Source: Callorhinchus milii
Lineage: Eukaryota
Reading direction: 5' to 3'
Assembly (NCBI RefSeq): GCF_018977255.1
Contig: NW_024704743.1
Location: 13,270,001-13,334,000, forward strand
Length of the DNA: 64,000 nucleotides
Shown: in pieces, positions 23,303 to 64,000 of the stretch
How positions within the stretch are numbered: the stretch's first letter is position 1
Layout of the letters: each line of letters opens with the position of its first letter
Position numbers and translations under genes: made by a program
The notes under the pieces: generated by a model
What the model was told of the DNA's origin: nothing
The model's database searches: none
Seen by the model: only the letters and a program-made list of their open reading frames with translations

Positions 23303-23604
23303 TATTATAACATCCACTCTGGTATTAATCTATACATACTCAAAGTGAGTCATAGGATTTTCTGTAAAGTGTTGTGACTGTGGATTAGGTAAACAAGCAG
23401 CCAATTCATGCTCAGCAATGTCCCACAAACAGCCTGTCCTTTTCTGCCCTATTCAGAAGTGGGCATCTGCCAGAGAGGATATAGATATTTGCCTCTTCAA
23501 TAATCTGGGTGTGGACGAGCAGGCTGGTACCGTGGTTGTTAAGACTTTCCATGGTTGTCTTCACTGGGGTTGCTCACTGTGAAGTGAGCATGTTATAGCA
23601 ATCA

Positions 23605-25254
23605 TCTTCAGCCTCTGCAAGGAGATGTTGGACTTCCTCGAATCCAAAATCAAGGAGATTGATTTGGTTACCTCTGTGCTGTCCACCGCTACTTCCTCGC
23701 CACCTCCCCCCTCACACCCCGACCCCCACCCATCCCTCCCTACACACTTTTGACCTTGTCCCCCTTTCTTCCTTCACCTCCACCATCTCAAAAATGAAGC
23801 CCACCACCTGCTCCCTCAACCCCATCCTTACCCCTCTCCTCACCTCCCAACTCCACCTTCTGTCCCCTTTTCTAACCAACATTATCAACCTCTCCTTATC
23901 CACTGGCACTGTTCTCACCCCCCTAAAAACAGCTGTCATCACACCCATCCTCAAAAATATTTCCCTGGACCCATTCCTACTCTCCAGCTATCAGCCCATC
24001 TCCAACTTCCCATTCCTCTCCAAGTCCCTGGATAGAGTCGTCACATCCTACCTTCTCTTTCCTCTCCCGCCATTTCCTCTTTGAACCCCTCCAATCGGGT
24101 TTCTGTGCTGCCCACAGCACAGAAACAGCCTGGTCAAAGTCATTAACAACATTGTGAACATCTGCGACCAGGGCTCACTCTGCCTCCTTGTTCTCCTCGA
24201 CCTCTCTGCTGCCTTTGACACTGTTGATCATTCTATCCTCGTACACCGCCTCTTCTCTCAGCTCAACCTTCATGAACTTGCCCTTGCCTGGTTTAAATCC
24301 TATCTCTCCCACCATCTCCACTTTGTCGCTACTACCGGCTTCTCCTCCAGTCCCCGCACCATCACGTGTGGCGTTCCTCAGGGCTCTGTTCTTGGCCCTT
24401 TCCTTTTCAATATCTATATCCTCCCCCTTGGTGACATCATTTATAGACATGGGGTCAACTTCCACATGTATGCAGATGTTACCCAACTCTATCTCTCTGC
24501 CTCCACCCTTGACTCCAGGACCACTGCTGTCCTCACAGACTGCCTGTCGGACATCAAGTCCTGGATGACAGCTAACTTCCTGCAGTTGAATATCAGCAAA
24601 ACCGAGGCCCTCCTGCTTGGCTCCCATCAGTGCCTCCATATCTCGAGCACTGACAGCATTGCCCTCCATGGATCCACTCTACATCTCAAGGAGTCAATAT
24701 GGAACTTCGACATCCTGTTTGATCCTCGTCCTTCATATCCCACATCCATGCCATGGTACTCTCCACCTTTCTCCACCTCCGTAACATCGCCCGGCTCCAC
24801 CACTGTCTCGTACACGTATTCATAACATCTAGACTACTAGGCAAACTCCCTACTTGTCGGCCTCCCCAACTCCTCCCTCCATAGGCTGTAGTTCATCCAG
24901 AACTCTGCAGCTTGTGTCCTCTCCCACTCGAGGTCCGCAACCCTATCACCCTGATCCTCGCCCGACTCACTGGCTTTCCATCACACAGAGGATACAGTTC
25001 ACTTTGAAAGCCCTCCATGGCCTTGCTCTGCCCTTCACCTGCGACCTCCTAACACCCTACAAACCTTCAAGATCCATCCCAAGACCCTCCTCTTCAACCG
25101 TGCCTTCGGTCTCCTTCTTTCTTCCACTGCCCTCTGCCCTCCACCCTCCCCGTTCCCGACCCCCAGCTTGGGTCCAAAACACTGATTGTCCAGCGCGTTG
25201 GGACGTCCTCCCGACGTGAAAGGCGCTATACAAATGTAATTTTGTTGTTGTTTG
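23605..25254 (+). mobile_element. L2 LINE ORF2 remnant (RT domain to 3' end), disrupted
   Basis: Motifs YQPISNFPFLSK, LVLLDLSAAFDTVDH, GVPQGSVLGP, YADVTQLY and LQLNISKTE, with frameshifts and a (TTG) tail. Confidence 0.95.
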
Positions 25255-28774: not shown

Positions 28775-29042
28775 TCGTCGGAATTGTTTATAGCCTTTGC
28801 CTCACAAGCGAGAAGATCCGGGTTTGATTCCCGGGCATGGTGAAACCTTAGGCAAGTTTCCTCACTCTACAAACCTCTGAAACATCCTCCCGACGTGAAA
28901 GACGCTATACAAATGTAATTGCTTTGTTGTTGTTGTTTACCTTGTAGTAAGTAGGAACCTGGTTGTTAGTCAATTGGTGGATTGCTTTTCCGTGGGTAAT
29001 AATCCCTTAAAAAAATGATAATAGTAATTTGGTCACTCACTA
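28775..29042 (+). mobile_element. Long SINE 5' part interrupted by an inverted L2 tail (28880-28935 region)
   Basis: The head runs to AAACCTCTG. An L2 tail (CATCCTCCCGACGTGAAAGACGCTATAC..TTGTTGTTG) follows, and the SINE then resumes as TTTACCTTGTAGTAAGTAGGAACC. The L2 tail is actually on the + strand, in the same orientation as the SINE. Confidence 0.75.
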
Positions 29043-30469
29043 AAGACCTTCCTTTTAGATCATGCTTACGGTTACCCTCTCTCCCTGGCTCGGGGTCAGA
29101 CTCCGACACTGTCAAGGGCTCCAGTACAGTACCCCGCGTGAAAGGTGCTATATAAGTGCAAGTTGTTGTTGTTATAGCACACATTTTGAATGCACAGGAA
29201 ATGCCGTAAGCAGCATTTCCTGCATAAAGATCATACATGCATCATGCACAGGAAGTGACATCAACGAAAACTTGATGACCCAGTTTCAAACAATTTATCA
29301 CACTTCACTTATAACACGATCTGCCCCAAAGTGACCATGTTATAATATGGTTGCTCTAACCAGCACTTTAAGGGCTATTCCTAGTCACTCGTGGCACTTG
29401 ATGTGATGATTATTGTAATACCACCTTAACCAGAAAATAAATTTGAGTGAAGTTGGTAAATAACACTCCAATGTTCATTGTGATTAAAAAGTACAACAAC
29501 TGTATTGTGACAGAGGCAGGGAATAGGGTCATGGGTCAAAATGTAGTGATACTCATGTGGGATGTCCTCCCGACGCGAAAGGTGCTATACAAATGTAATC
29601 TTGTTATTGTTGTTGGACTAATTGTGTTATCAATTGGCCTCATTGACTGCATTTATCACTAATAATATAACAATCTTTGTATTTGATATAATGCCTTATC
29701 ACGTCATCATAATTTGTCAAAGCGCTTCACAGGATTTACTGTAAATTGTGGTGACTGTGTTTCTACGGGCAGTGGTGTGATAATCAACATACCAGAATTT
29801 TCACCTTGGTAGTTCAGAGAGTGCCTTATTGAAGGAACAGTCCTCTGAATGTAACCCTTGGTCTAGACAGCACATGTGTCACTTAACCATACTTTTACAC
29901 TTGGCTCATGATACAGTCACGCTGACAGCAAAACAGAAAATTTTATATTTTATGGAACAGTGGCACTATTTAAAAAAACTGGCACCAACATCCACAGAGC
30001 AGATGGAAGCTGAGTCCAAAGCGTCAGGGTAATGAAAAGCAGAAATAGAGCGTTGTGCGTGGAATTTTCCACCAAGATTAATTTTATAAACCTGAGCTCA
30101 AGCCCATGGCCATATTGTGCTGTGGCTGTGTGCCCACACCTACAATCCAGCGATATTTCCCCATCAATCACAGAAATTTATTTGTACAGCTCTGCAATCA
30201 AGCTGACCACTAGTGGCTTTCATACTGGCGGGGGAGAAAAAGGGGGGAAAACATTTCTCTTTCACGCAGAAAGCCAGCAAAATACAGATAGACATCCAAA
30301 CCTCTCCTGTGAATGCAGAAGAATGTAAAAAATGCTTTACACTCTGCCTCTTCTATGAACTGAACACCTGGCCATTCTGACACATTTCCATAGAATACAG
30401 CACATTTGGTTCATTTGTTTAATAGAATCTTCAACTCAACAACAATTTACGTTTATTTTATGTAATCAA

Positions 30470-30735
30470 TGATAATAAAGAAAGTGGAAGATAACCTACG
30501 TAAAAATAATCTAATAATTGACAGTCAGTACAGATTCAGAAAGGATAGGCCTTGTCTGACCAATCCCATACCCTTTATCATTGACTATGGGAAGCAAAAT
30601 AAATATGGTATATCTAGAATTTAAAAGGAGTTTGACAAAGTACCACAGGAAAGATTCCTTTACAAACTGTAGTTATTGGGTATCAAGGGACGTGGATTCA
30701 GAATTGGCTGAAGGGAAAGAAATAAGTGGTTGCTT
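30470..30735 (+). mobile_element. Old CR1 RT fragment
   Basis: Degenerate Q.RF.KDR.CLTN and VYLEFKR.(F)DKVP motifs. Confidence 0.65.
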
Positions 30736-31038
30736 GTTAGGGAAGGTAGGTCAAAATAGGAGAGGTACAGTAAACTCCTGATAGCTTGACTTGTCACCAC
30801 CACTTAAATCACCATGTCAATATCCCAGCAGCTTCCCATGTAAAACGTAAAAAAAACTTTACTTGTCATTTTGCTTAACATTTTACTAATCACATTCTGG
30901 AAATTCTTGTAAGTATTCACAATGTAAAATTGTTTGGATTACTCGTTCTTTAAGATGGCGTCTTGCAACGAAGAAACTTCCTGCCCTATCCTATGATTGA
31001 TGCAGGCACTCGGCAGAGGTTTTGTGCATTTGCTCAGA

Positions 31039-33797
31039 TGCATCATAGAGGCCTCTGTGACAGAATTGGATGGGAGGCCATGGGCTGAGCCAATAGAAAT
31101 GTACGGAAATATTTCCCCAAAAATGCGGCGAGCTTTACAAATTTTGCGGGGGATTGCAGCACAACTTGCTAAGTTTTGCAGAAAATTGAGGAGGGTTCAT
31201 TGATCTACTGAGAGATGCATTTCGTTGCTAACCTACATTTTTTCTCTTTTCTCATTTTTAAAAACTAAACGTGAAGAAATAACACATCATAGGTTATTGG
31301 GAAAAAATTTATTCATGTTTTCTTTTACAAAAACAGAACATTTCAAAATTTTGAAAGTGTTGACTTTCAAAGGATGCAAAAGTGCAGTTTCAACACAGTT
31401 TGCAGAAAAATTTAAATTTTCAAAATCAAATTTTCACAGAAACAAACAAAAAAGTCTCAGCCGAAAGTTTAGCGCTGGTTACATTTTAACGTGAGAAGCA
31501 TCTTTATATTTCCTTCTGTTAGGCTTTATCTATTATCTTTGAGGAGGTCTGAATAAACAGAAAATGACCTTTCAACATCAGCTGTGCTCACTCGTAGCCA
31601 AACGTACCTTTTTACAATTTTAACAAGTTTCACAAGTGGCTCAGGCTGAGCTCCCCACCATGCTGCTATTTTGTGGTTAGCTGAGATATTTTCTCCAGCT
31701 GCTTTATAAGCATGCATTTCGAAGTTTGAAAGGGCAGGAATCATATTACTATAAGTGTTTTTCTGCATCCATTGTTGTTAGCTGGTGAGGAATAAAAATA
31801 CAAACTGCTTTGTAGGTAGCAATTGACAGGTACTTTTTCAAAATCAGTTCCAACTTTTCACTGCTGTCTTGCCTGATTTTCTGGAAAATGGTTGAAACCT
31901 ACCTCTCTCTCACTCTCAAGACAGGCTGACAACTTTTCTACTGTCTTTGGTCTGTACTCCTGTGCTCCAGCAGCAGCACAGAAATCAATAAACAAATGTA
32001 AATTTTGCACCCGTAAGTACAGATTGTGGCCCTGAAGCACAGCTGTTGCCTAACATTCTTCAATGAGTTTTATGAGCTCAGATGAGTGCTCTGTGACAAA
32101 GGTTGCTTGGGCTTGCAATTCTGCAGCATTATTGTTCAAGAACATTTTCATTTTCTTTCGCTGTTAAGGCCTCTGATGCGATTCCTTGAAGAAATTCTGC
32201 CAAGACAGAATACAAATATACAAATATTCAACAGCCTTCACCCAGGAGCACCAACGTGTCTGAACAGCAAACACTGGCATCTATTGTTTAATTCCATCCT
32301 TCTTTCCATAAATTCCAAGTACTGATGCCAGCCTATTGGACTTTGGCAGAAGATATTCTTGACTTTAGCAACCACTGTGTTTAAGTCCTCCAGTATAACA
32401 GGTTAAATTTCCAAAATCAAGCTCAGAAAATGGGCAATGCATAGAATATGTATTGTGTTACGAAATGATCCGGACAAATTTGTGTTAAATGTTTTAATCA
32501 TGTAGTTTACACTGTCTATGGCAACTGCAAGCACTTTAGCAAAGTTAACTATTTTTACATTTAAAACGTGGTGTGGTTTGCTGCAAGAATTCAACTCCAA
32601 TAAGAAGAAGCTTTTCCCCAACTTTCTGCAATGGTTGTGCCAGCACTGGCAGAACACTGTGCACACAGGAATCAGTGGTCTCATCCGTGTCCTCAACATG
32701 TTTTTTCAATAATACTTTATGCTCAGGAATAAGCTCCTTCAAGTATGTATTCTGAAGCTGTGATGGTGTTGGAATAGTCCCTCCATGTTCGCTGTACTTG
32801 CATAGAAACTCTTCAAAGGCAGGAGCTTTTTCAAATGGTCTGTCTGCACCAGTCAAACACTTCACAAAGTCCAAAATGATTTTTTTCCTCTCCATAGAGA
32901 AGTAGGTTGTCAGAGCAAGTTGTCTTTGAGGTCCAGATCCACCTAGAAAGGAAAAAATAAAAATTGATCTTCATGATGCATTTGTCATTTGTTTTTGTTT
33001 GCTGTGGTTGTTTTATGTGCTTCTAAAATTCAATCAAAAAGGAGGGAGATTAACTTTTGTAATCATTAAGATTTTCTTTCAAAATTCAAGTGAAAGCAAA
33101 TAATGATACCTTTTCATTTAATATATATTATTATATATACCAAAAGCAATTTCTCTTCATTTTTTCCCCTTATTGCCACTGTCTAGCATTCACAATGTTT
33201 CCGAGATTTCATGTGCTCATCAATGCAAACATGGTCAATTGTGTGACAGCAAATACGGCAAAACAGCTGCCCCCCCGCCATAAAGGTCATCTGGAGAGAG
33301 TACAATTCTATCTGAGGGACAGACGGAAAATGAGACGTGCTGCCCCTTGGCTTATTCCCGGGATTTACAAACAAGTTTGACGTGTTTGTATTGTATAACC
33401 TAAAAAGTGAAACACCAAAAAGTGTGGTTATGTTTCAAATACTAAATATTTTAATTTGAATAGTACAGCACTTACCAAGATTTCATCACAGTCGTGTGGT
33501 GTGTGACGCAGCAGCTTTCCTACCAGTGAAGTCCATTTCCCGCACATGCAGCTTCCTCGATCCCCAAATTCACCGCGCCACGCATGCATGCTCGGAGCCT
33601 CTCCAGCCAGAGTAGCAGCATCAAGCAAATGGCGCGAGAGGTCTGGGGTCTAGTGCACTGTATGGGAAGTACTCGAGGGCCTGTTTGTAGCGGACGAGGG
33701 TCATTGTAGGGGAAAATGTTGAAGAGGTGCGCTCACATTTTTGGATTGGCCCAGGCCATGGGGCAGTTCTCAATAAACCAGAGACCTCTGTGATGCA
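31039..33797 (-). mobile_element. Decayed hAT DNA transposon related to CGGBP1
   Basis: Transposase remnants (next feature) are flanked by an imperfect inverted repeat. TGCATCATAGAGGCCTCTG at 31039 matches the reverse complement TGCATCACAGAGGTCTCTG ending at 33797. Confidence 0.8.
31526..33330 (-). pseudogene. CGGBP1-like hAT transposase pseudogene
   Basis: In order on the minus strand: zinc finger GGQLFCRICCHTIDHV..IDEHMKSRKH; DFVKCLTGADRPFEK..FLCKY..GGTIP..QLQNTYL; DETTD; DSVNYM; HILCIAH; WW..STADVERSFSVYSDLL. Multiple frameshifts and stops. Confidence 0.88.
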
Positions 33798-33872
33798 GGA
33801 CACCACCCGAGTGCATTCCATTCAGATATAGGGACATTTCCATGTGTAGATGGTATACATATAATATTCCCA

Positions 33873-34253
33873 ATAATAATAATCCTTGCATTTGATATAG
33901 TGCCTTATCACATTGTCGAGACATCTCAAAGCACCTAACAGAACATACTGTAAAGTGAATTGACTATATATTTTGTGGGCAAAATGTGGCAACCAATTGT
34001 GCAAAGCAGTGTCCCACGAACAGGGATGGATTGAGTGACCAAACTATTATTTGTGTTTTTTTGTAGGAGGGATTATTACCCCCGGAAAGCCATCCGACAA
34101 TCAACCAACAACTGGGTTTCTACTTACTCCTAGTTCAACAGAAGCATGTGGAGTAAGGAAACTAGCCTAAGGTTTTACCCCACCTGGGAATCGAATCTGG
34201 GTCCTCTCGTTTGCAAGGCGATTGCTCTAACCAATATACTGCAGGACTCCACA
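33873..34253 (-). mobile_element. Long subfamily SINE, full length, inserted in a family C repeat
   Basis: Runs from the (AAT)n tail to GCAGGACTCCACA. Family C sequence lies on both sides (33808-33870 and 34255-34340). Confidence 0.88.
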
Positions 34254-35184
34254 TATGTGGAACACTCATTCTAGTTTGGATACTCTTAAGCATGGAGATA
34301 GGTTTCACATGTGAAAGACACCTGGCTGACCAAAACAAAATGTCAGTCTAGTGAGTGAGTGTTAGCAGGAAATTCAACTGTGGGTGAGGGGACGCAGAGC
34401 AGCACAGGCAACCTGGTGCTGTCTTCACCCAATGTGCACTGTGTGATTGATGACATGATGTAATCTGAAGCTGAAAATTAGATGACAGCCTATGTCTGTT
34501 ATTATTTAGAATACATCCTGTTTCCATTTAGCTCAAAGCTTTGCCTCAGTTTCTCCTTGGCCTCCGTGCCAGCTGTGGTTCTCAGTGTGCTGAGCAGAGG
34601 ATTAATAAGTGTCAAAGGTTTGTGCAGAAATAGTATGCAGTTGTCTGCTGGTGTGAGGTGTATCAATGCTGTGTTTATGTTGCAGAGCTGGTTCAACTGC
34701 CCTGGAATATCCTCAACTCCTGAGATCTACCTGCCTAGACCTCAGGGTACATTTCAGTTCACCAGGGCCGATAAACACACACAACTTTACGAATAAGCAG
34801 CTGTTTATTGAAGGCGTTTTCCGAAATTATTTTTCATCTTTAACTTTATATCCTGCAAATTAAAGTTGCAGAAATCTGATATTCTGGGCAACAGACCTTC
34901 ATTGGATTTTTACCAAAATCTGTATAGGGCAGTGACAGAAAGTCTACTTTACTGAGCTGTATCTTCTTTGGAGGTGCAGAGGAGACATAAGCAATGTCAC
35001 CTTGGGGCTTAACTGGCTCCAAGGTGATGTGTCTGGCAAGGGAATATTGGAATTGAGGCAATCCTACCTGGTGATCTCAGTAGCCCAGTTCATGAGTCAA
35101 AACCCTGTGCAGTACTCCAAGACACTGATGATGACATGATGATAGCCATAGCAACTTGGCTCATCAATAGGATTTGGAGGGGCA

Positions 35185-35463
35185 GGCCTGTTAACACCGC
35201 CTAATGGGTAAGGTGATCCAAGCTGGACAAATAACAGGAAGCTTGCCAGACAACACTCTCAATGGCAAGCTATATGTTTTTAACTAGTTAAACTCTGGCA
35301 ATAGCCCAGCAGATATTCAAGTGTTGGCCCTTCCAACCTGCGCCGAGTAATGTGGTTTATTTAAGGACGACGTGTAGAGAAAGTATGCATTCCAGTCCAG
35401 ACACAGAGAAATGTCCGGGCATACATAAATGGAACCTTCCAACTGGTTTAGATGCTCTTAAGC
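35185..35463 (+). repeat. Family C repeat, diverged
   Basis: CCTGTTAAC..AGCTGGACAA..GGAAGCTTGCCAGACA..CTCAATGGCAAGCTAT..GATGCTCTTAAGC. Confidence 0.7.
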
Positions 35464-38429
35464 TCTGTTTTTTTTATCTATGAGCGTTAATAAAATGATG
35501 TTTAAATGTGAGCATTTCATTGTTAGTGATTTTCCAGAGCGGTTGAGCCATTTTCTTGAACAAACTTTAAGAGAAAAGAGACATCAGCACTGTAATATCT
35601 GGCCATGTGATCAATAAAAATAGGCTGGAGGGAAGGTTACACTAGTCTGGCCATGAATGAATATCTGATATTAACTTACACTACAGCAGAGCTGTCACAG
35701 ACCAAATCACCATCTACTTAACAAGGTTAGACAGATGCAATACATTTACACAAATCACCTGCACACAGAACTTTCCCAGTGACCAGCTTTGAAGTCCAAA
35801 GCAAAAGTGGCCATCTTCTGTGTTGTCAGGTTGTAACTGACGGCACTTCCTGGGTGCTACATTCATGTGTGTTCTGAGCAGGAAGTGCCGCACGCACAGC
35901 CTGCAAGAAATGACATCGGTGGTGACCTGAAGTCAGCCATTTTGTAACAGTGGAAGCCGTCGGGCTGGACAGTAATGTAGCACACGTCCATGAACCGTGG
36001 GCTCAAAGCAGATCTATCCTATAAGGAAACTCCTGCTCTAAAAAGGTGTCTTATAACTGGAACCCTGCAGGTAGGGTAGACTAATCAGGGAGGCTGTGGA
36101 GAAGGACTGTTTGGGGGTATGAAATTGATTGAGAGATAGGATAGAAAGGATTGTGTAAGAATATTAATTCATTTTTAATTTGAGATTAGTCAGATAGACA
36201 GCAGTGCTTTTCTGCTTTTCTTGTCCTGTACTTTCCTATGTTCGTATAGTTTTGTTCCCAGACACTTGGCAGACCTTGGCATTTCTAATAGTGAGACATT
36301 TAATGAAACTTGCTTTGTTAGCTCTTTAGGTCAGGCATGGCACAGACTAGTGCTTGGCACCAAACAGCATGTAGATGTGCAAGAGAAGAAATAACAATGT
36401 ATCTCCAAGTTAGCCAAGCTGTTGTGGAGTTATGGTCAGATAATCTATTATATTACTAAATGGAGGAAACACTTGGAAAATAGCAGCCTCCCTATTAATG
36501 AAAGTTAAAACATTCCTGACACTTTGCAGAATTCAATTCAGACACAGCTTGGGGAGCAATACAGTGTTGGGGGAGTGCAGCATTGTACTAGGTGCCATCC
36601 ATCAGTTGATACGCTAATCTGAGGACCCATTTGCCTGTTCATGCAGAACTATTCAAAAAGAGAAGGGAGTTTTTCCCAATATCCCGATCAATAACCCATA
36701 GATACAGTTGGTCATTTATTTTATGGTGTTTGTGAGACGTTACATGACTGTTCTGCATTTGCCTACAAAATACAGTCATTACACTTACAAAAAATTCTAT
36801 GAAGCACCTTGAGACGTCCTTTTTGATGTGGAAGGTGCTATATCAAACGTAAGGATGAATTTTTTTATTGCTTTATTTAACTATTTCCAAAGTGTCAGGA
36901 TTATGGGCAGTGAAGAAGAAAATGGAGTTTGTTTTAAGCAAGGGAAGGGCAGTTTAGAAACTAAAGGAGAGAGAAGTCAAAAATGAGAGCAGGAGTGGAG
37001 ATGAAGGGACAGCCACAAGGAGATTAGGAAATCCCAGAGGAGCTTCTGGCAAATGTGATAATCCTTAATGTCGATGAGGATCTCCCCAATGATTGTCAAT
37101 AAATAAAGTCAATGAGTAAAGACTGGTTGCAGATATGATCCACCCAACACCCCCCTCACACACACACCTTGACATAGGGCCGGAAACTGAACGATGCAGA
37201 CATCAGGGTAACAGATCAGTGTTGGATTTGCTGTTCACAGACAGGTAGGGTGGCTTTGGTGGGTACAGCTATTGTGATGGGGCTGGGGAGAAGGAGCCCA
37301 ACTGTGAACCAGTTTTTAGATATAAATCAGCTGCATTCATCACATTTACCACATTATGTCACAATTTACACCTTTTGCGTTTCACATTCCTGAGGCAATA
37401 TAAAGTGGGACGTGTTGATTAAACATTTTCTTCCACATTGCTATGCTGCTAGAAGCAAAAGGTTTCTGTTCCCAGTGGCACAACCACAGTATTTGCCTCA
37501 TCAGAGGCCGTGCAGACATCTAAGCTGATCAGCTAAATGTAATTGAGAATTCTCTAACTCATTGACAAAGAGCAGGGAGCGTATCCTGGACCTATGTAGT
37601 GCAGGGCCTCATTATAACTTAGTAGTGAATGGGCTGCAAATCTCACCGGGGGAAGAAGAAAGGAAGAGACACTCCTCATCAAGCAGCGGTATTCTTTTTG
37701 CTGTGTATTCCATTACAAAAGAACAAAATCTCTGTACAAAGCAAAATCTGATTACTTGATAAGAAGGCGGAGTAATGCTGGAGACTAATTCCACTGAGTC
37801 TCTATCCTCCCACACCTCACAATACAAACTATGAGAACTTCCTTCCTTCCCTTCCCCCTGATTGAGGATTTACAATGAGGGCAGCTCGGCAAAGCATGAT
37901 GAGGGATCTCCATCTTGAGTCTCAAATTAATGCATTGTTCATCATTGTGTCATTCCCCACCCCCATACACAAGCCTGCTTCAAATATCCTGAAATAAATG
38001 AACCAGGTCCAGCTTGGAAAGTAAAGAGCTAGGAAATTCCTGTAGGCAGCTCAGCTAGTTTTGAGGTGATGGTGATTGACCATAGTTTTATGTTTAGATC
38101 TCTAGGTGATAAACAAATATGGGAGGGTGTAAGGGTGGGAGCAGAGGGAGCTGGAGATGGCTGGTCCACAGGGCTCAATATGTTCTTGTGCAGCTGGACG
38201 GGAGGATGTAAGGAATATTTTTCAGTGAGAGAAAAGAGGTTTGAATGATCATAATAATAACCCTTGCATTTGATATAGCTCCTTATCACATCTTCTAGAT
38301 GTCTCAAAGTGCTTCACAGAATATACTGTAAAGTGAATTGACTGTATATTTTGTGGGGGAAACTGTGAAAGCATTTTGTGATGCTCTCTCAATGCCCCAA
38401 TTCTCACTATTTTGGTGTAGACATAAAGG

Positions 38430-38815: not shown

Positions 38816-39149
38816 TATAATTGTAACCTAAACCATATCCAAATTGACTAGAACACTGGAATATGTTTCACTATTAGAATGATATTAGTAAGGAAAGTTT
38901 CTAGCATTGGGCCACATAGATTTAAAACAAGATACTATCATTGTTGGGCACTGCCAAACTTACAGCTTGTTCACTTATAGGGATCATTACACTTTACAGT
39001 AAGTCCTGTGAAGCACTTTATTATTATATTGGCTGAGCTCCTACTGAATTCATTCCACAACAGCTGCACCCAGATAGCAATAACAAAGAGAGAAGGAAAT
39101 TCAGTCTAGTTTCATAACCTGAATATGCATTGAACTACATCACTTACAT

Positions 39150-40260
39150 CCACTTCAGTGAGACTGTACTTGCATGGTTCGAGTCCTATTTAACCAACCA
39201 CCTCCATTTCATCTCGGCAAATGGTTTCTCCTCCTGCCCCCGCCCGGTCACCTGCGGGGTACCCCAGGGCTCCATCCTTGGCCCTCTTCTTTTCCTTATC
39301 TATATGCTCCCTCTGGATGATGTCATCCGCAGACACGGGGTAAACTTACACATGTATGTGGATGCCACACAAATCTACTTTGCTTCCTCCAGTACCAAAT
39401 CCAGGTCCACTGATGTTCTAGCAGCTTGTCTGGCAGACATCAAGGCCTGGATAAGTGTAAACCTCCTGCAGCTGAAAATGGACAAGACAGAAGCCATACT
39501 CCTTGGCTCCCGCTAACATCTTCACTCCTGTGGTTCTAAACTTCTCAATCTCCCAGGGATCTCCCTCAGACTCACCGAACCAGTGTGAAGTCTAGGCGTC
39601 TGGTTCAACCCCCAGCTGTCCTTCCTCCCCCACATCGGTCCCTGACCAGGACCATCTTCTTCCACCTCCACCACATTGCCCACCTCCGACTGTACCTTAC
39701 CTCAAATGCAGTTGAAACCCTTGTGCACGCGTTTGCCACCTCCCACTTTGATTATTCAAATGCTCTCCTCGCCAGTCTCCCCAGCTCCATTATTCAAAAG
39801 ACTCAGCTCATTCAGAACTCTGCCGCCCACATACTGAACCAGACCAAACTCCATACCCACATCTCACCAGTTCTGGCCAGGCTCCACTGGCACCCCATCA
39901 TCGAATGGATCGACTTCAAAATCCTCACATTCATGTTCAAATCCATTCACTCCCTGGCACCTCCCTACCTCTCTGACCTCCTCACTCTCCAATTCACCAC
40001 CTGGCGCCTCTGCTCGGCTCTTGCATTCTCCGCCCCACCATCGGAGGTTGCGCTTTCAGCCACTATGCCCCAAAACTCTGACACACTGTCACTCAATCCC
40101 TCTGCCTGACCCCCTCTCTCCCCTTTTTCAAGTCCCGCCTGAAAACTTTCCTCTTCGACTGTGCTTACGGCCACCTCCCATTCCCCCCCTCAAAGTCAGG
40201 CTCCGCCACTGTTGCTACCCTGCGTGGAGGGAGCTATATGTGTGCAAGTTGTTGTTGTTG
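39150..40260 (+). mobile_element. L2 LINE RT to 3' end, disrupted
   Basis: Motifs GVPQGSILGPLLF, YVDATQIY, FDYSNALL, LHW.PI..WIDFKIL and a (TTG)n tail. Confidence 0.92.
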
Positions 40261-55538: not shown

Positions 55539-56490
55539 AACAACAACAACAACAAGATTCCATTTATAAAGCGCCTTTCACGTCAGGAGGACGTCCCAAG
55601 GCGCTGCACAGTTGGGTCATGACCCGAGCAGGGGGGAAATGGTCAGGGTGAGGGAAGGGAGGGAGCAAGGAGGGGGGAAATGGTCAGGGTGAGGGGAGGG
55701 AAGGGAGGGAGCGAGGAGGGGGAAGAGAGTCGAGAGGGGAGCTGAAGGCACGGTCAAAGAGAAAGGTTTTGAGACCGGCCTTGAAGGAGGAAAGGGAGGA
55801 GGCGGCGAAGGCACTGGGGGATGGAGTTCCAGAGCCTGGGGGCTGAGAGGCTGAAGGCCCGACCACCGATGGTAGGGCGGTTGGGGCGGGGGACGTGGAG
55901 CAGACCGGAGCCAAAGGAACGGAGGGTACGGGCAGGTAGGTAGGGGATAGTAGGTTGGAGAGGTAGGAGGGAGCGAGGCCGTGAATGGCCTTGTAGGTGA
56001 GGATGAGGATCTTGAAATCGATCCTCTGGGGATGGGGAGCCAGTGGAGGCGAGCGAGGGTGGGAGTGATGTGGTCGTGAAGCCTGGTGCGGGACAGTACA
56101 CAAGCTGCAGATTCTGAATGACCTGCAGCTTGTGGAGGGAGGTGGCGGGAAGGCCGGCGAGGAGAGAGTTCCCATAGTCCAGCCTTGAGGTGACAAAGGC
56201 GTGGACCAGGGTTTCAGCAGCGTGAGGGGTGAGGTAGTGCCGTAGTCTGGCGATGTTCCGAAGGTGATGGAAGGCGGTGCCAGTTGTAGTGCGGATGTGA
56301 GGGAGAAAGGACAGCTCAGGGTCGAACAAAACGCCGAGGTTCCTGACTGGCTTTGAGAGGTGGAGAGTGCAGCCTTGGATGCTGATGGTGTCGGCGCCTG
56401 AGGTGCGGAGGCGCTGACACGAGCCAATCAGGAGGGCCTCGGTTTTTCGCACGTTGAGCTGAAGAAAGTTGTCTCTCGTCCAGGACTCGA
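55539..56490 (-). mobile_element. Young L2 LINE, 3' 950 bp
   Basis: Motifs NFLQLNVRKTE, VRNLGVLFD, AFVTSRLDYGNSLL, RIDFKIL..YKAIHGLAPSYL and FKAGLKTFLF. CpG-rich, with a (CAA)n tail. Confidence 0.95.
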
Positions 56491-56574
56491 TGAAATATAG
56501 TGACTGTGTATTTGTGGGCAAACATGGCAGCTAATTTGAAACAGTTATGCCTCACAAAAAGTCATGAAGAAAAT

Positions 56575-61910: not shown

Positions 61911-62065
61911 CTCATTTCAAGGGAGGAAGGGAATCAGGATGTAGGATCAGCTAAGAGAAACAAGTTTCATAGAGAGCTAGGAGAGACGAATAGCAATATA
62001 AAAAGCAGTAATACAGAAAATGGGGGATTAGATGGGAGAGAAATGCAGAGCAGACTCAGTCAGTC

Positions 62066-64000
62066 TTGAAGTGGATGTGCGTAAATGCACGGAGTGTGAC
62101 GAATAAGGTTGGTGAGCTGCAGGCTCAAGTTGCCACATGGGGTTATGATGTAGTGGCAATAACAGAGACCTGGCTCAAACAAAGGCAGGAATGGGAGCTG
62201 AATATTCCTGGCTACAATGTATTCAGGAGGGATAGGGAAGGAAGAAAAGGAGGGTTGATGTTGCTCAAGGTAGATAAGTCACCCAGTCCGGATGGGATGC
62301 ATCCTAGGTTACTGAGGGAACAGAAGTAAGTGTGGAAATAACGGAGGCTCTAGTCACAGTCTTTCAATCCTTCTTGGACACTGGGGTGGTGCCAGAGGAA
62401 TGGAGGTTGCAAATGTTACTCCCCTGTAGAAAAAGGGACAGAAGGATAAACCCGGGAACTACAGGCCAGTCAGCCTAACGTGAGTAGTGGCGAAACTTTT
62501 AGAGCCTATGATCCGGGACAAAATAAATTTTCACTTAGAAAATATGGGTTAATAAAGGGACAGCCAACATGGGTTTGTTAAAGGCAAATCGTGATAGTTT
62601 TCTGATGAAGTAATGGAGAGGGTGGATGAAGGTAGTGCAGCTGATGTAGTTTGCATGGATTATCAAAAGGCGCTTGATAAAGTGCCACAAAAGAGACTTG
62701 CAAGCAAAATAGAAGCCCAGGGTATTAAAGGAATAGTGGCAGCATCGATACAGAACTGGCTGGGAGACAGAAAGCAGAGAGTGGTGGTGAACAGTTGTTT
62801 TTCTGACTGTAGGAAAGTGTGCAGTGGTGTCCCCCAGGGATCAGTATTGGGACCACTGCTATCCTTGATCTATATAAATGAGCTGGACTTGGGTACAGGG
62901 AGTACAATTTCCAAGATTGCAGATGATGCTAAGAAAAGTAATAAACAGTGAGGAGGATAGTAGCAGACTGCAAGGGGTCATGACAGATTGGTAAAATGGG
63001 CAAACTCATGGCAGAAGAAGTTTAATATGGAGATATGCGATTGATGCATTTTGTGAGGAACAACAACAACAAGATTCCATTTATAGAGCGCCTTTCACGT
63101 CGGGAGGACGTCCCAAGGCGCTGGACAGTTGGGTCAGGACCCGAGCCTTGGGGGGAAAATGGTCAGGGTGAGGGGAGGGAAGGGAGGGAGCGAGCGAGGA
63201 GGGGGTAGAGAGTCGAGAGGGGAGCTGAAGGCACGGTCAAAGAGAAAGGTCTTGAGACCGGCCTTGAAGGAGGAAAGGGAGGAGGCGGCGAAGGCACTGG
63301 GGGATAGAGTTCCAGAGCCTCGGGGCTGAGAGGCTGAAGGCCCGGCCACCGATGGTAGGGCGGTTGGGGCGGGGGATGTGGAGCAGACCGGAGCCAGAGG
63401 AACGGAGGGTACGGGCAGGTAGGTAGGGGGAGAGTAGGTCAGAGAGGTAGGAGGGAGCGAGGCCGTGAATGGCCTTGTAGGTGAGGATGAAGATCTTGAA
63501 TTCGAATGAGGAGAGGCAATATAAGCTGATGGTAGAATCTTAAAGGGGGTGAAGGAACAGAGAGACCTGGGGGTTCATAATCTTAAATCTATGAAGGTGG
63601 CAGTTCAGGTAAATAAAGCTGTTAAAAAAAAATATACGAGATACTAGGCTTTATAAATAGGGGCATAGAATACAAAAGTCAGGAAGATATGATGAACCTT
63701 TATAAAAAACTGTTCAGGCCTCAGCTAGAGACTGTGTTCAGTTTTGGGTACCTTACTTTAGGAAAGATGGCCAGGCATTGGAGAGGGTGCAAAGGAGATT
63801 TACCAGGATGGTACCAGGAATGAGGGACTTCAGTTATCTGGAGAACCTAGAGAAGCTAAGATTATTCTTCTTGGAGCAGAGAAGGTTAAGAGGAGACTTA
63901 AGTTTTCAAAATTATGAGGGGATTCGATAAGAAACTATTTCCACTGGCGGGTGGGTTGGTAACCTAAGGACACCGATTTAAAATAGTTGTTAAAAGAAAC
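62066..64000 (+). mobile_element. CR1 ORF2 remnant (APE endonuclease N-terminus, RT), internally deleted, runs off the window
   Basis: Motifs NARS..NK..EL, VAITETWL, KSPSPDGMHPR, NYRPVSL, D.QKALDKVP, GVPQGSVLGP, ADDAK and RPQLE. Confidence 0.95.
63059..63505 (-). mobile_element. Young L2 3' end inserted into CR1
   Basis: Near-identical to 55539-56020. CR1 reads ..TTTGTGAGGAA before the insertion and GAATGAGGAGAGG after it. Confidence 0.93.

What the first reader, a model, noticed from the sequence alone, without database searches (positions are those of the whole stretch)
31039..33797. Fossil hAT transposon whose N-terminus looks like the vertebrate host gene CGGBP1, still joined to a full catalytic core
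Seen: ordered minus-strand remnants of a zinc finger (GGQLFCRICCHTIDHV..IDEHMKSRKH), then QRQLALT..ERKKIILDFVKCLTGADRPFEK..FLCKY..GGTIP..QLQNTYL, followed by DETTD, DSVNYM, CIAH and ADVERSFS. Known: CGGBP1 has GGKLFCTSC..SDHLKSKTH and DFVKMCLEANIPLEK..GGSIP..QLRRAYL, is short, and is considered hAT-derived; DDE, CxxH and ERSFS are hAT transposase motifs. Inference: this is a once-mobile relative of the lineage domesticated as CGGBP1, and it retains the C-terminal domains that CGGBP1 lacks.
Basis: partly seen in the sequence, partly recalled or inferred. Interest (0 to 1): 0.7.

Follow-up and report, generated by a model that had tools for sequence, protein, structure and literature searches.

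The report
Dead CGGBP-type hAT transposon copy

Summary
Real, but ordinary. All 11 quoted motifs are present in order. The locus aligns over residues 15-582 of an intact 585-aa teleost hAT transposase (202 of 537 identical), with the DDE, CxxH and RW motifs in place. The element most likely spans 31085-33754: short inverted ends and a perfect 8-bp target duplication. The copy is dead: 7 stops, at least 6 frameshifts, and the CGGBP-like head is broken too. Its closest named relatives are Callorhinchus milii gene models, and sequencing runs hold other copies at about 84-87% identity. Yellan et al. 2021 (PMC8097297) already showed that the CGGBP domain marks 29 of 824 catalogued hATs, mostly hAT-19, so a CGGBP head on a catalytic core is the normal build of this subclass. 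By-eye comparison with human CGGBP1 puts other intact transposases closer (49 and 48 of 77 residues, against 34). The scan found this family before on other DNA of this genome (e1-7812294). I found no paper describing the chimaera family itself.

The parts
31085..33754 (-). Whole element, 2670 bp, decayed autonomous hAT (CGGBP-domain, hAT-19-like) DNA transposon copy
33755..33762 (-). 8-bp target site duplication, 5' copy (CCCATGGC on the minus strand, with a centred 6-bp palindrome)
   Evidence: 8 of 8 identical to the 3' copy
31077..31084 (-). 8-bp target site duplication, 3' copy
33735..33754 (-). 5' terminal inverted repeat, begins CTGGGCCAAT
   Evidence: 9 of the first 10 bases match the other end; match goes on after a 2-base gap
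31085..31102 (-). 3' terminal inverted repeat, reads CTGAGCCAAT from the end inward
33455..33754 (-). 5' subterminal region, G+C 53%, rich in CGC (40 per kb against 7.7 in the window); likely promoter and transposase-binding sites (inference)
33400..33475 (-). Candidate 76-nt intron in the 5' untranslated region (GTAAGT ... TTTTTAG); splicing not shown
33159..33383 (-). First coding exon, broken: ACG where sibling P0004 has its start Met (33383), TAA at 33354, frameshift near 33275, three-residue deletion inside the zinc finger, TAG at 33185
33195..33275 (-). BED-like C2H2 zinc finger (CRIC ... H ... H), first half of the CGGBP domain
32943..33158 (-). Intron between zinc finger and Hermes-type block; acceptor TTTCTAG ends at 32943; no GT at the donor position implied by sibling P0002, so the 5' edge is approximate
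   Evidence: (242-nt skip)
31469..32942 (-). Main coding exon: Hermes-type DNA-binding block, RNase-H-like core, insertion domain, hAT C-terminal region; stops at 32405, 32283, 32166, 32052, 31528; frameshifts near 32571, 32335, 31899, 31775; natural stop TAA 31471-31469
32740..32892 (-). Hermes-type DNA-binding/dimer block, second half of the CGGBP domain
32683..32685 (-). First catalytic Asp (D170 of P0045, invariant in 13 of 13 aligned homologs)
32514..32516 (-). Second catalytic Asp (DS motif, D232 of P0045; aligns with FVTD of Hermes)
32430..32441 (-). CxxH motif (CIAH)
32251..32256 (-). RW motif (R318-W319 of P0045)
31571..31573 (-). Catalytic Glu in ADVERSFS (E549 of P0045), inside the hAT C-terminal region
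31308..31313 (-). AATAAA, candidate poly(A) signal
33779..33797 (-).
31039..31057 (-).

Best explanation
One decayed insertion of an autonomous, intron-bearing hAT DNA transposon of the CGGBP-domain (hAT-19-like) group, in a chimaera genome (Callorhinchus milii or a close relative). When alive, it made a spliced mRNA for a transposase of about 600 residues. The zinc finger and Hermes-type block bound the ends, the DDE core with CxxH and RW cut the element out through hairpins on the flanks, and a staggered insertion left the 8-bp duplication seen here. The family spread to several or more copies, then this copy decayed and can make neither a transposase nor a CGGBP-like protein. Shown here: homology, motifs, lesions, inverted ends, duplication, other copies. 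Inferred from known hAT chemistry: binding, cutting and insertion. Inferred from one sibling protein: splicing.
For: Collinear match to intact P0045 over residues 15-582, 202 of 537 identical. [quoted passage not shown] Inverted ends (9 of 10) with an 8-of-8 duplication arose in 2 of 5000 simulated flank pairs. [quoted passage not shown] Contigs of public runs include pieces at about 84-87% identity, with up to 20 contigs carrying another letter at one site. The lesions are not assembly errors: one contig matches 32373-32748 with no difference and another 31684-31969 with two.
Against: The ends read CTG, not the CA or TA start usual for hATs (my recall); an end six bases further out would start CATGG but leaves a 4-of-8 duplication. 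The ends rest on this one copy. The window's own pieces do not pass any Pfam cut-off: 1 of 9 hit the hAT domain at E 0.022, 15 bits against 21.4. No Repbase hAT-19 sequence or PANTHER CGGBP model was available, so the subclass is assigned by likeness. The host species is inferred from homolog names.
Confidence: 0.93

Rival explanations
1. The locus is a domesticated CGGBP-type host gene (as in coelacanth) or the chimaera CGGBP1 locus, with a decaying transposase tail behind a working DNA-binding head.
For: Intron-bearing layout; a sibling protein is named CGGBP1-like and is joined across the intron; dozens of such domestications are published.
Against: The head is as broken as the tail: ACG at the start position, TAA 33354, frameshift near 33275, deletion inside the finger, TAG 33185, no GT donor at the expected place. 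Inverted ends and duplication survive. No host exon was recognised in the window: 2 of 113 non-repeat frames hit Pfam, both retrotransposon domains, so synteny gave no support either way. CGGBP1 proper is described as amniote-conserved.
Confidence: 0.02
2. The family is the direct sister of the element that became CGGBP1 in amniotes, not just one of many CGGBP-domain hATs.
For: Sibling P0009 begins MERF and has R-x-RSK and P-x-DR at spacings like human CGGBP1 (by eye).
Against: By-eye identity to human CGGBP1 over the zinc-finger and Hermes blocks (77 residues): window 34, P0045 38, P0048 48, P0064 49. Five stored proteins share CGGBP1's two-residue DH insertion (EK-x-DHP); the window and the C. 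milii and teleost proteins lack it. Part of the window's deficit is decay. Yellan et al. find many independent lineages.
Confidence: 0.07
3. The element's true ends are the outer 19-bp inverted repeat (31039-33797), as the reader drew them.
For: 17 of 19 bases complementary, and the inverted match can be stretched with gaps to about 63 bases.
Against: No duplication flanks these ends (2 of 8); the inner ends have 8 of 8; the 36-38 bases between outer arm and inner end align only with gaps.
Confidence: 0.1
4. The segments are unrelated fragments or chance matches.
For: No piece of the window passes a Pfam cut-off alone; a search among longer proteins found 0 of 223 candidates.
Against: One protein explains all segments in order and spacing; shuffled controls reach at most 31.2 bits.
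Confidence: 0.005

Closest known systems
hAT-19 subclass transposons with a CGGBP domain (hAT-19_Crp, hAT-13_LCh, hAT-4_LMi, hAT-1_RPr; Yellan, Yang and Hughes 2021, PMC8097297)
   Same: zf-BED plus Hermes-type DNA-binding head on a hAT transposase; element length of about 2-3 kb (axes of their Fig. S3); vertebrate host
   Different: No cartilaginous fish among the 15 clades in their Table S1; this copy is dead; its sequence could not be compared with the Repbase consensus sequences
Intact teleost transposase XP_059199577.1 (Centropristis striata, P0045) and relatives in Thunnus, Coregonus, Synaphobranchus, Oncorhynchus
   Same: Whole-length collinearity, 38% identity, same motifs, no DH insertion
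   Different: Open frame of 585 residues; forms its own clade (100/98), joined to the chimaera clade with weak support only (80/49)
Callorhinchus milii UniRef gene models P0001-P0005, P0009, P0054 (one named CGGBP1-like)
   Same: Same family: main segments about 54-83% identical; P0002 uses the same splice acceptor
   Different: Other loci, short predicted products; their status (gene or fossil) was not tested
Human CGGBP1 (NP_001008391.1, seen in the supplement of PMC11575156)
   Same: C2H2 finger and Hermes-type block: 13 of 30 and 21 of 47 residues identical by eye
   Different: 167 residues, ends before the first catalytic Asp, has the DH insertion, is a conserved host gene
Hermes transposase (PDB 8EDG, 4D1Q, 2BW3, 6DWW)
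   Same: Fold and DDE, CxxH, C-terminal motifs, tested on the intact homolog P0045
   Different: 15-18% identity in the fold alignment; another hAT subclass

Membership tests
hAT superfamily | 8-bp target site duplication (PMC4763223, PMC9004415) | tested here: met
   8 of 8 at 33755-33762 and 31077-31084; 2 of 5000 by chance together with the inverted ends
hAT superfamily | Short terminal inverted repeats | tested here: met
   9 of 10 terminal bases, extending to about 18 with one gap
hAT superfamily | Ends starting CA or TA (recalled rule, no paper seen here) | tested here: inconclusive
   Best-supported ends start CTG; related L001 also has CTGGG..CCCAG but preceded by TAAAG on both sides, duplication 4-6 of 8
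hAT superfamily | DDE triad with insertion domain, CxxH and conserved Trp (PMC4763223) | tested here: met
   D 32685, D 32516, CIAH 32441, RW 32256, E 31573
hAT superfamily | C-terminal hAT domain (PF05699) | tested here: met
   Window piece E 0.022, under the cut-off; collinear homolog P0045 passes at E 4.8e-12 and matches the window there at 35%
hAT superfamily | Dispersed copies in the genome | tested here: met
   Seven C. milii gene models and many divergent contigs; no count possible, no genome held
hAT-19 / CGGBP-domain hATs | zf-BED plus Hermes DNA-binding block with the conserved C, C, H, H, upstream L and two prolines (Yellan 2021) | tested here: met
   LFCRIC..H..H present; prolines of RPFEK and TIP present; Atlas first hit for the homolog's head is CGGBP1-like, 0.96. 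Which two prolines the paper means was not visible (figure not held)
hAT-19 / CGGBP-domain hATs | Match to the PANTHER CGGBP1 model, or clade with Repbase hAT-19 transposases | not testable with these tools
   Neither the model nor the Repbase sequences are held
hAT-19 / CGGBP-domain hATs | Head binds motifs in the element's own subterminal regions | not testable with these tools
   Needs a binding assay; the 5' end is CGC-rich, a hint only
Domesticated CGGBP genes | Open frame for the head (under 200 residues), transcribed as mRNA | tested here: not met
   No ATG at the homologous place, two stops, frameshifts
CGGBP1 orthologue | Synteny with the amniote locus | tested here: inconclusive
   No host exon recognised in 64 kb; short exons could be missed
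Active autonomous transposon | Intact transposase frame | tested here: not met
   7 stops, at least 6 frameshifts

The most novel reading that the evidence does not exclude
The chimaera genome holds an uncatalogued, intron-bearing CGGBP-domain hAT family with unusual CTG ends and a palindromic target, and either this family lies close to the ancestor of CGGBP1 or one of its other copies has been kept as a spliced CGGBP-type host gene, which would extend these domestications to cartilaginous fish.
Probability: 0.1. Interest if true: 0.45.

Novelty: new member of a known kind. Interest (0 to 1): 0.14.

Why it matters
Little in itself. It adds a cartilaginous-fish family to a known subclass, in a genome described as poor in DNA transposons (PMC4350176). 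This copy is useful as a scaffold because it keeps both ends, the target duplication and the exon layout, so it can seed a family model and a place in a CGGBP1 tree. It does not change the published account of where CGGBP1 came from.

Tried and rejected
No whole genome is held, so copies were not counted and ends were not checked across copies. Pfam on 9 stop-free pieces: one weak hAT hit and two irrelevant weak hits. PDB sequence search with the longest piece and with a head profile: nothing significant, so no solved CGGBP1-like structure was found. Search among longer proteins: 0 of 223 candidates, a sensitivity limit, since later gave a 585-aa relative. A head-profile search meant to fetch CGGBP1 orthologues returned 21 of 2641 candidates, none named CGGBP1, so CGGBP1 is missing from the tree (51 of 66 rows kept, 15 dropped for not spanning the block, among them 4 of the 7 C. 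milii proteins). No RNA holder listed; nothing is claimed on expression. Laying reads on 30500-34300 was swamped by the neighbouring SINE, so joints and loose ends at the element's ends were not shown. Metagenome scan: 2 loci of 151 candidates; L001 is a whole relative but its duplication is imperfect at every register. No second copy of the element in the window. Rfam over 29000-36000: no match. Look-up of earlier notes by sequence and nearby place: none. Paper searches with no hit: 'hAT-19' + 'target site duplication' (62), 'CGGBP' + 'elephant shark' (75), 'CGGBP' + 'chondrichth' + 'transposon' (76); two papers listed for 'hAT19' + 'terminal inverted' (45) were not read.

Full report
Observation. 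The window is repeat-rich animal DNA: 37% is masked by self-comparison, and its long frames look like LINE reverse-transcriptase remains. No second copy of the element is in the window, and no genome is held.

Homology. A 120-residue stop-free piece (32581-32940) found 44 relatives at E up to 0.001 among 1.84 billion cluster representatives. [quoted passage not shown] Next come teleost proteins, among them an intact 585-residue protein of Centropristis striata, P0045. A frameshift-aware alignment lays P0045 residues 15-582 along the locus with 202 of 537 identities and one 242-nt skip. The best tblastn segment scores 84.7 bits, against at most 31.2 for 200 shuffled copies. P0045 is a hAT transposase: it passes the Pfam cut-off for the hAT C-terminal domain, its significant PDB sequence hits are all Hermes (4 of 31 rows; the other 27 have E of 0.15 or more), and the ten best fold matches of its model (mean pLDDT 70) are Hermes, E 5e-12 to 6e-9, with low TM-scores of 0.32-0.38. 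[quoted passage not shown] In the window, D (32685), D (32516), CxxH (32441), RW (32256) and E (31573) are in place; these are the hAT catalytic motifs described in PMC4763223 (passages). Against this, the window's own pieces pass no Pfam cut-off (1 of 9 hits the hAT domain weakly).

Ends. A scan of all end pairs found one register with a perfect 8-bp direct repeat, CCCATGGC, directly outside inverted ends CTG(G/A)GCCAAT, at 33754 and 31085. Such a pair arose in 2 of 5000 simulated flank pairs. The duplication has a centred 6-bp palindrome, which explains why the inverted match seems to run a few bases further. The CTG start is unusual for hATs by my recall. A whole, intact relative from a metagenome contig (L001) also has CTGGG...CCCAG, but with TAAAG outside on both sides and no perfect duplication, so the family's terminus is not settled.

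State of the copy. There are 7 stops (33354, 33185, 32405, 32283, 32166, 32052, 31528) and at least 6 frameshifts (near 33375, 33275, 32571, 32335, 31899, 31775); the first is inferred from sibling P0004. Other copies also differ by single-base indels at 32217 and 32155, which points to a compensated pair. About six residues before the first Asp are missing relative to sibling P0001. The head is broken as well: ACG at the start position, a deletion inside the finger, and no GT where P0002 implies the donor. P0002 is joined to the same acceptor (32943), which supports the intron; that P0002 comes from a cDNA is my recall only. Contigs from public runs carry this allele across several lesions (32373-32748 with no difference, 31684-31969 with two) and across the 31085 junction (30500-31255 with one and three differences); these runs may include the source of the assembly. 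Other contigs differ by about 13-16% (for example 46 of 325, 51 of 318, 72 of 442), and up to 20 contigs show another letter at one site (40 rows shown, 1238 not). So the family has several or more copies, and many differences are private to this one. Contigs give no copy number.

Relation to CGGBP1. I counted identities by eye over the finger (30 residues) and the Hermes block (47): window 13 and 21, P0045 14 and 24, P0048 18 and 30, P0064 15 and 34. P0064 and P0048 are full-length transposases with the whole core, and they share CGGBP1's DH insertion, found in 5 of the 65 stored proteins but not in the window. In a tree of the Hermes block (51 of 66 rows; CGGBP1 absent; unrooted) the window joins three C. 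milii proteins at 100/97, with only weak support for a link to the teleost clade; the DH-bearing proteins lie elsewhere and deeper branches are open. One point runs the other way: sibling P0009 starts much like CGGBP1 (MERF, R-x-RSK). The family is therefore one of several CGGBP-domain lineages, probably not the nearest, and the order is unresolved.

What is known. Yellan et al. 2021 (PMC8097297; main text read; supplement text; figures not seen) report that the CGGBP1 model finds 29 of 824 catalogued hATs, including 13 of 16 hAT-19, that hAT-encoded heads bind motifs in their own subterminal regions, and that dozens of independent domestications exist, 62 genes in coelacanth alone. Frith 2022 (PMC9004415; passages) lists hAT19 fossils in human and takes them as support for CGGBP1's origin. 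PMC11575156 (passages and two supplement look-ups) repeats the hAT origin. No cartilaginous fish is among the 15 clades of Yellan's Table S1, and searches for CGGBP with elephant shark or chondrichthyans found no paper, so this family may be undescribed in the open literature; Repbase and Dfam were not searchable.

Mechanism and verdict. An autonomous, spliced hAT element inserted here by cut and paste, leaving the 8-bp duplication, and then decayed; the chemistry is inferred from Hermes and Kat1, the rest is shown above. Confidence 0.93. A domesticated gene at this locus is excluded by the broken head. New member of a known kind; interest 0.14.

Noticed in passing
window 31039-31057 and 33779-33797: 19-bp inverted repeat (17 of 19) outside the target duplication; with the element removed, the site is a hairpin of about 90 bases with the target in its loop. 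Each arm holds a near-palindrome, so the arms also match as a direct repeat. Origin unexplained; possibly a small older element.
   Followed up: partly
window 33754 and 31085; L001 19 and 2333: Both this element and a distant intact relative have CTGGG-type inverted ends; in L001 they are preceded by TAAAG on both sides, either part of the end or a palindromic target preference.
   Followed up: partly
L001 1-2401: Whole AT-rich eukaryotic hAT element in a metagenome contig, with a 457-residue open main frame and an apparent intron inside the zinc finger, at another position than in the window.
   Followed up: partly
P0064 (577 aa) and P0048 (561 aa): Unnamed full-length transposases whose heads are 62-64% identical to human CGGBP1 over 77 residues by eye and share its DH insertion; better candidates for the lineage closest to CGGBP1 than this locus.
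   Followed up: partly
window 33872-34253: A very high-copy short repeat (SINE-like) 110 bases from the element's 5' end, with more than 20 related copies in the window.
   Followed up: no
window 30500-31007: The flank beyond the 3' end drew several-fold more contig depth than single-copy sequence, so it may itself be a low-copy repeat.
   Followed up: no
window 23599-24822, 39118-40106, 55757-56530, 62012-62948: Decayed LINE-type reverse-transcriptase and endonuclease remains; no host exon was recognised anywhere in the 64 kb.
   Followed up: partly
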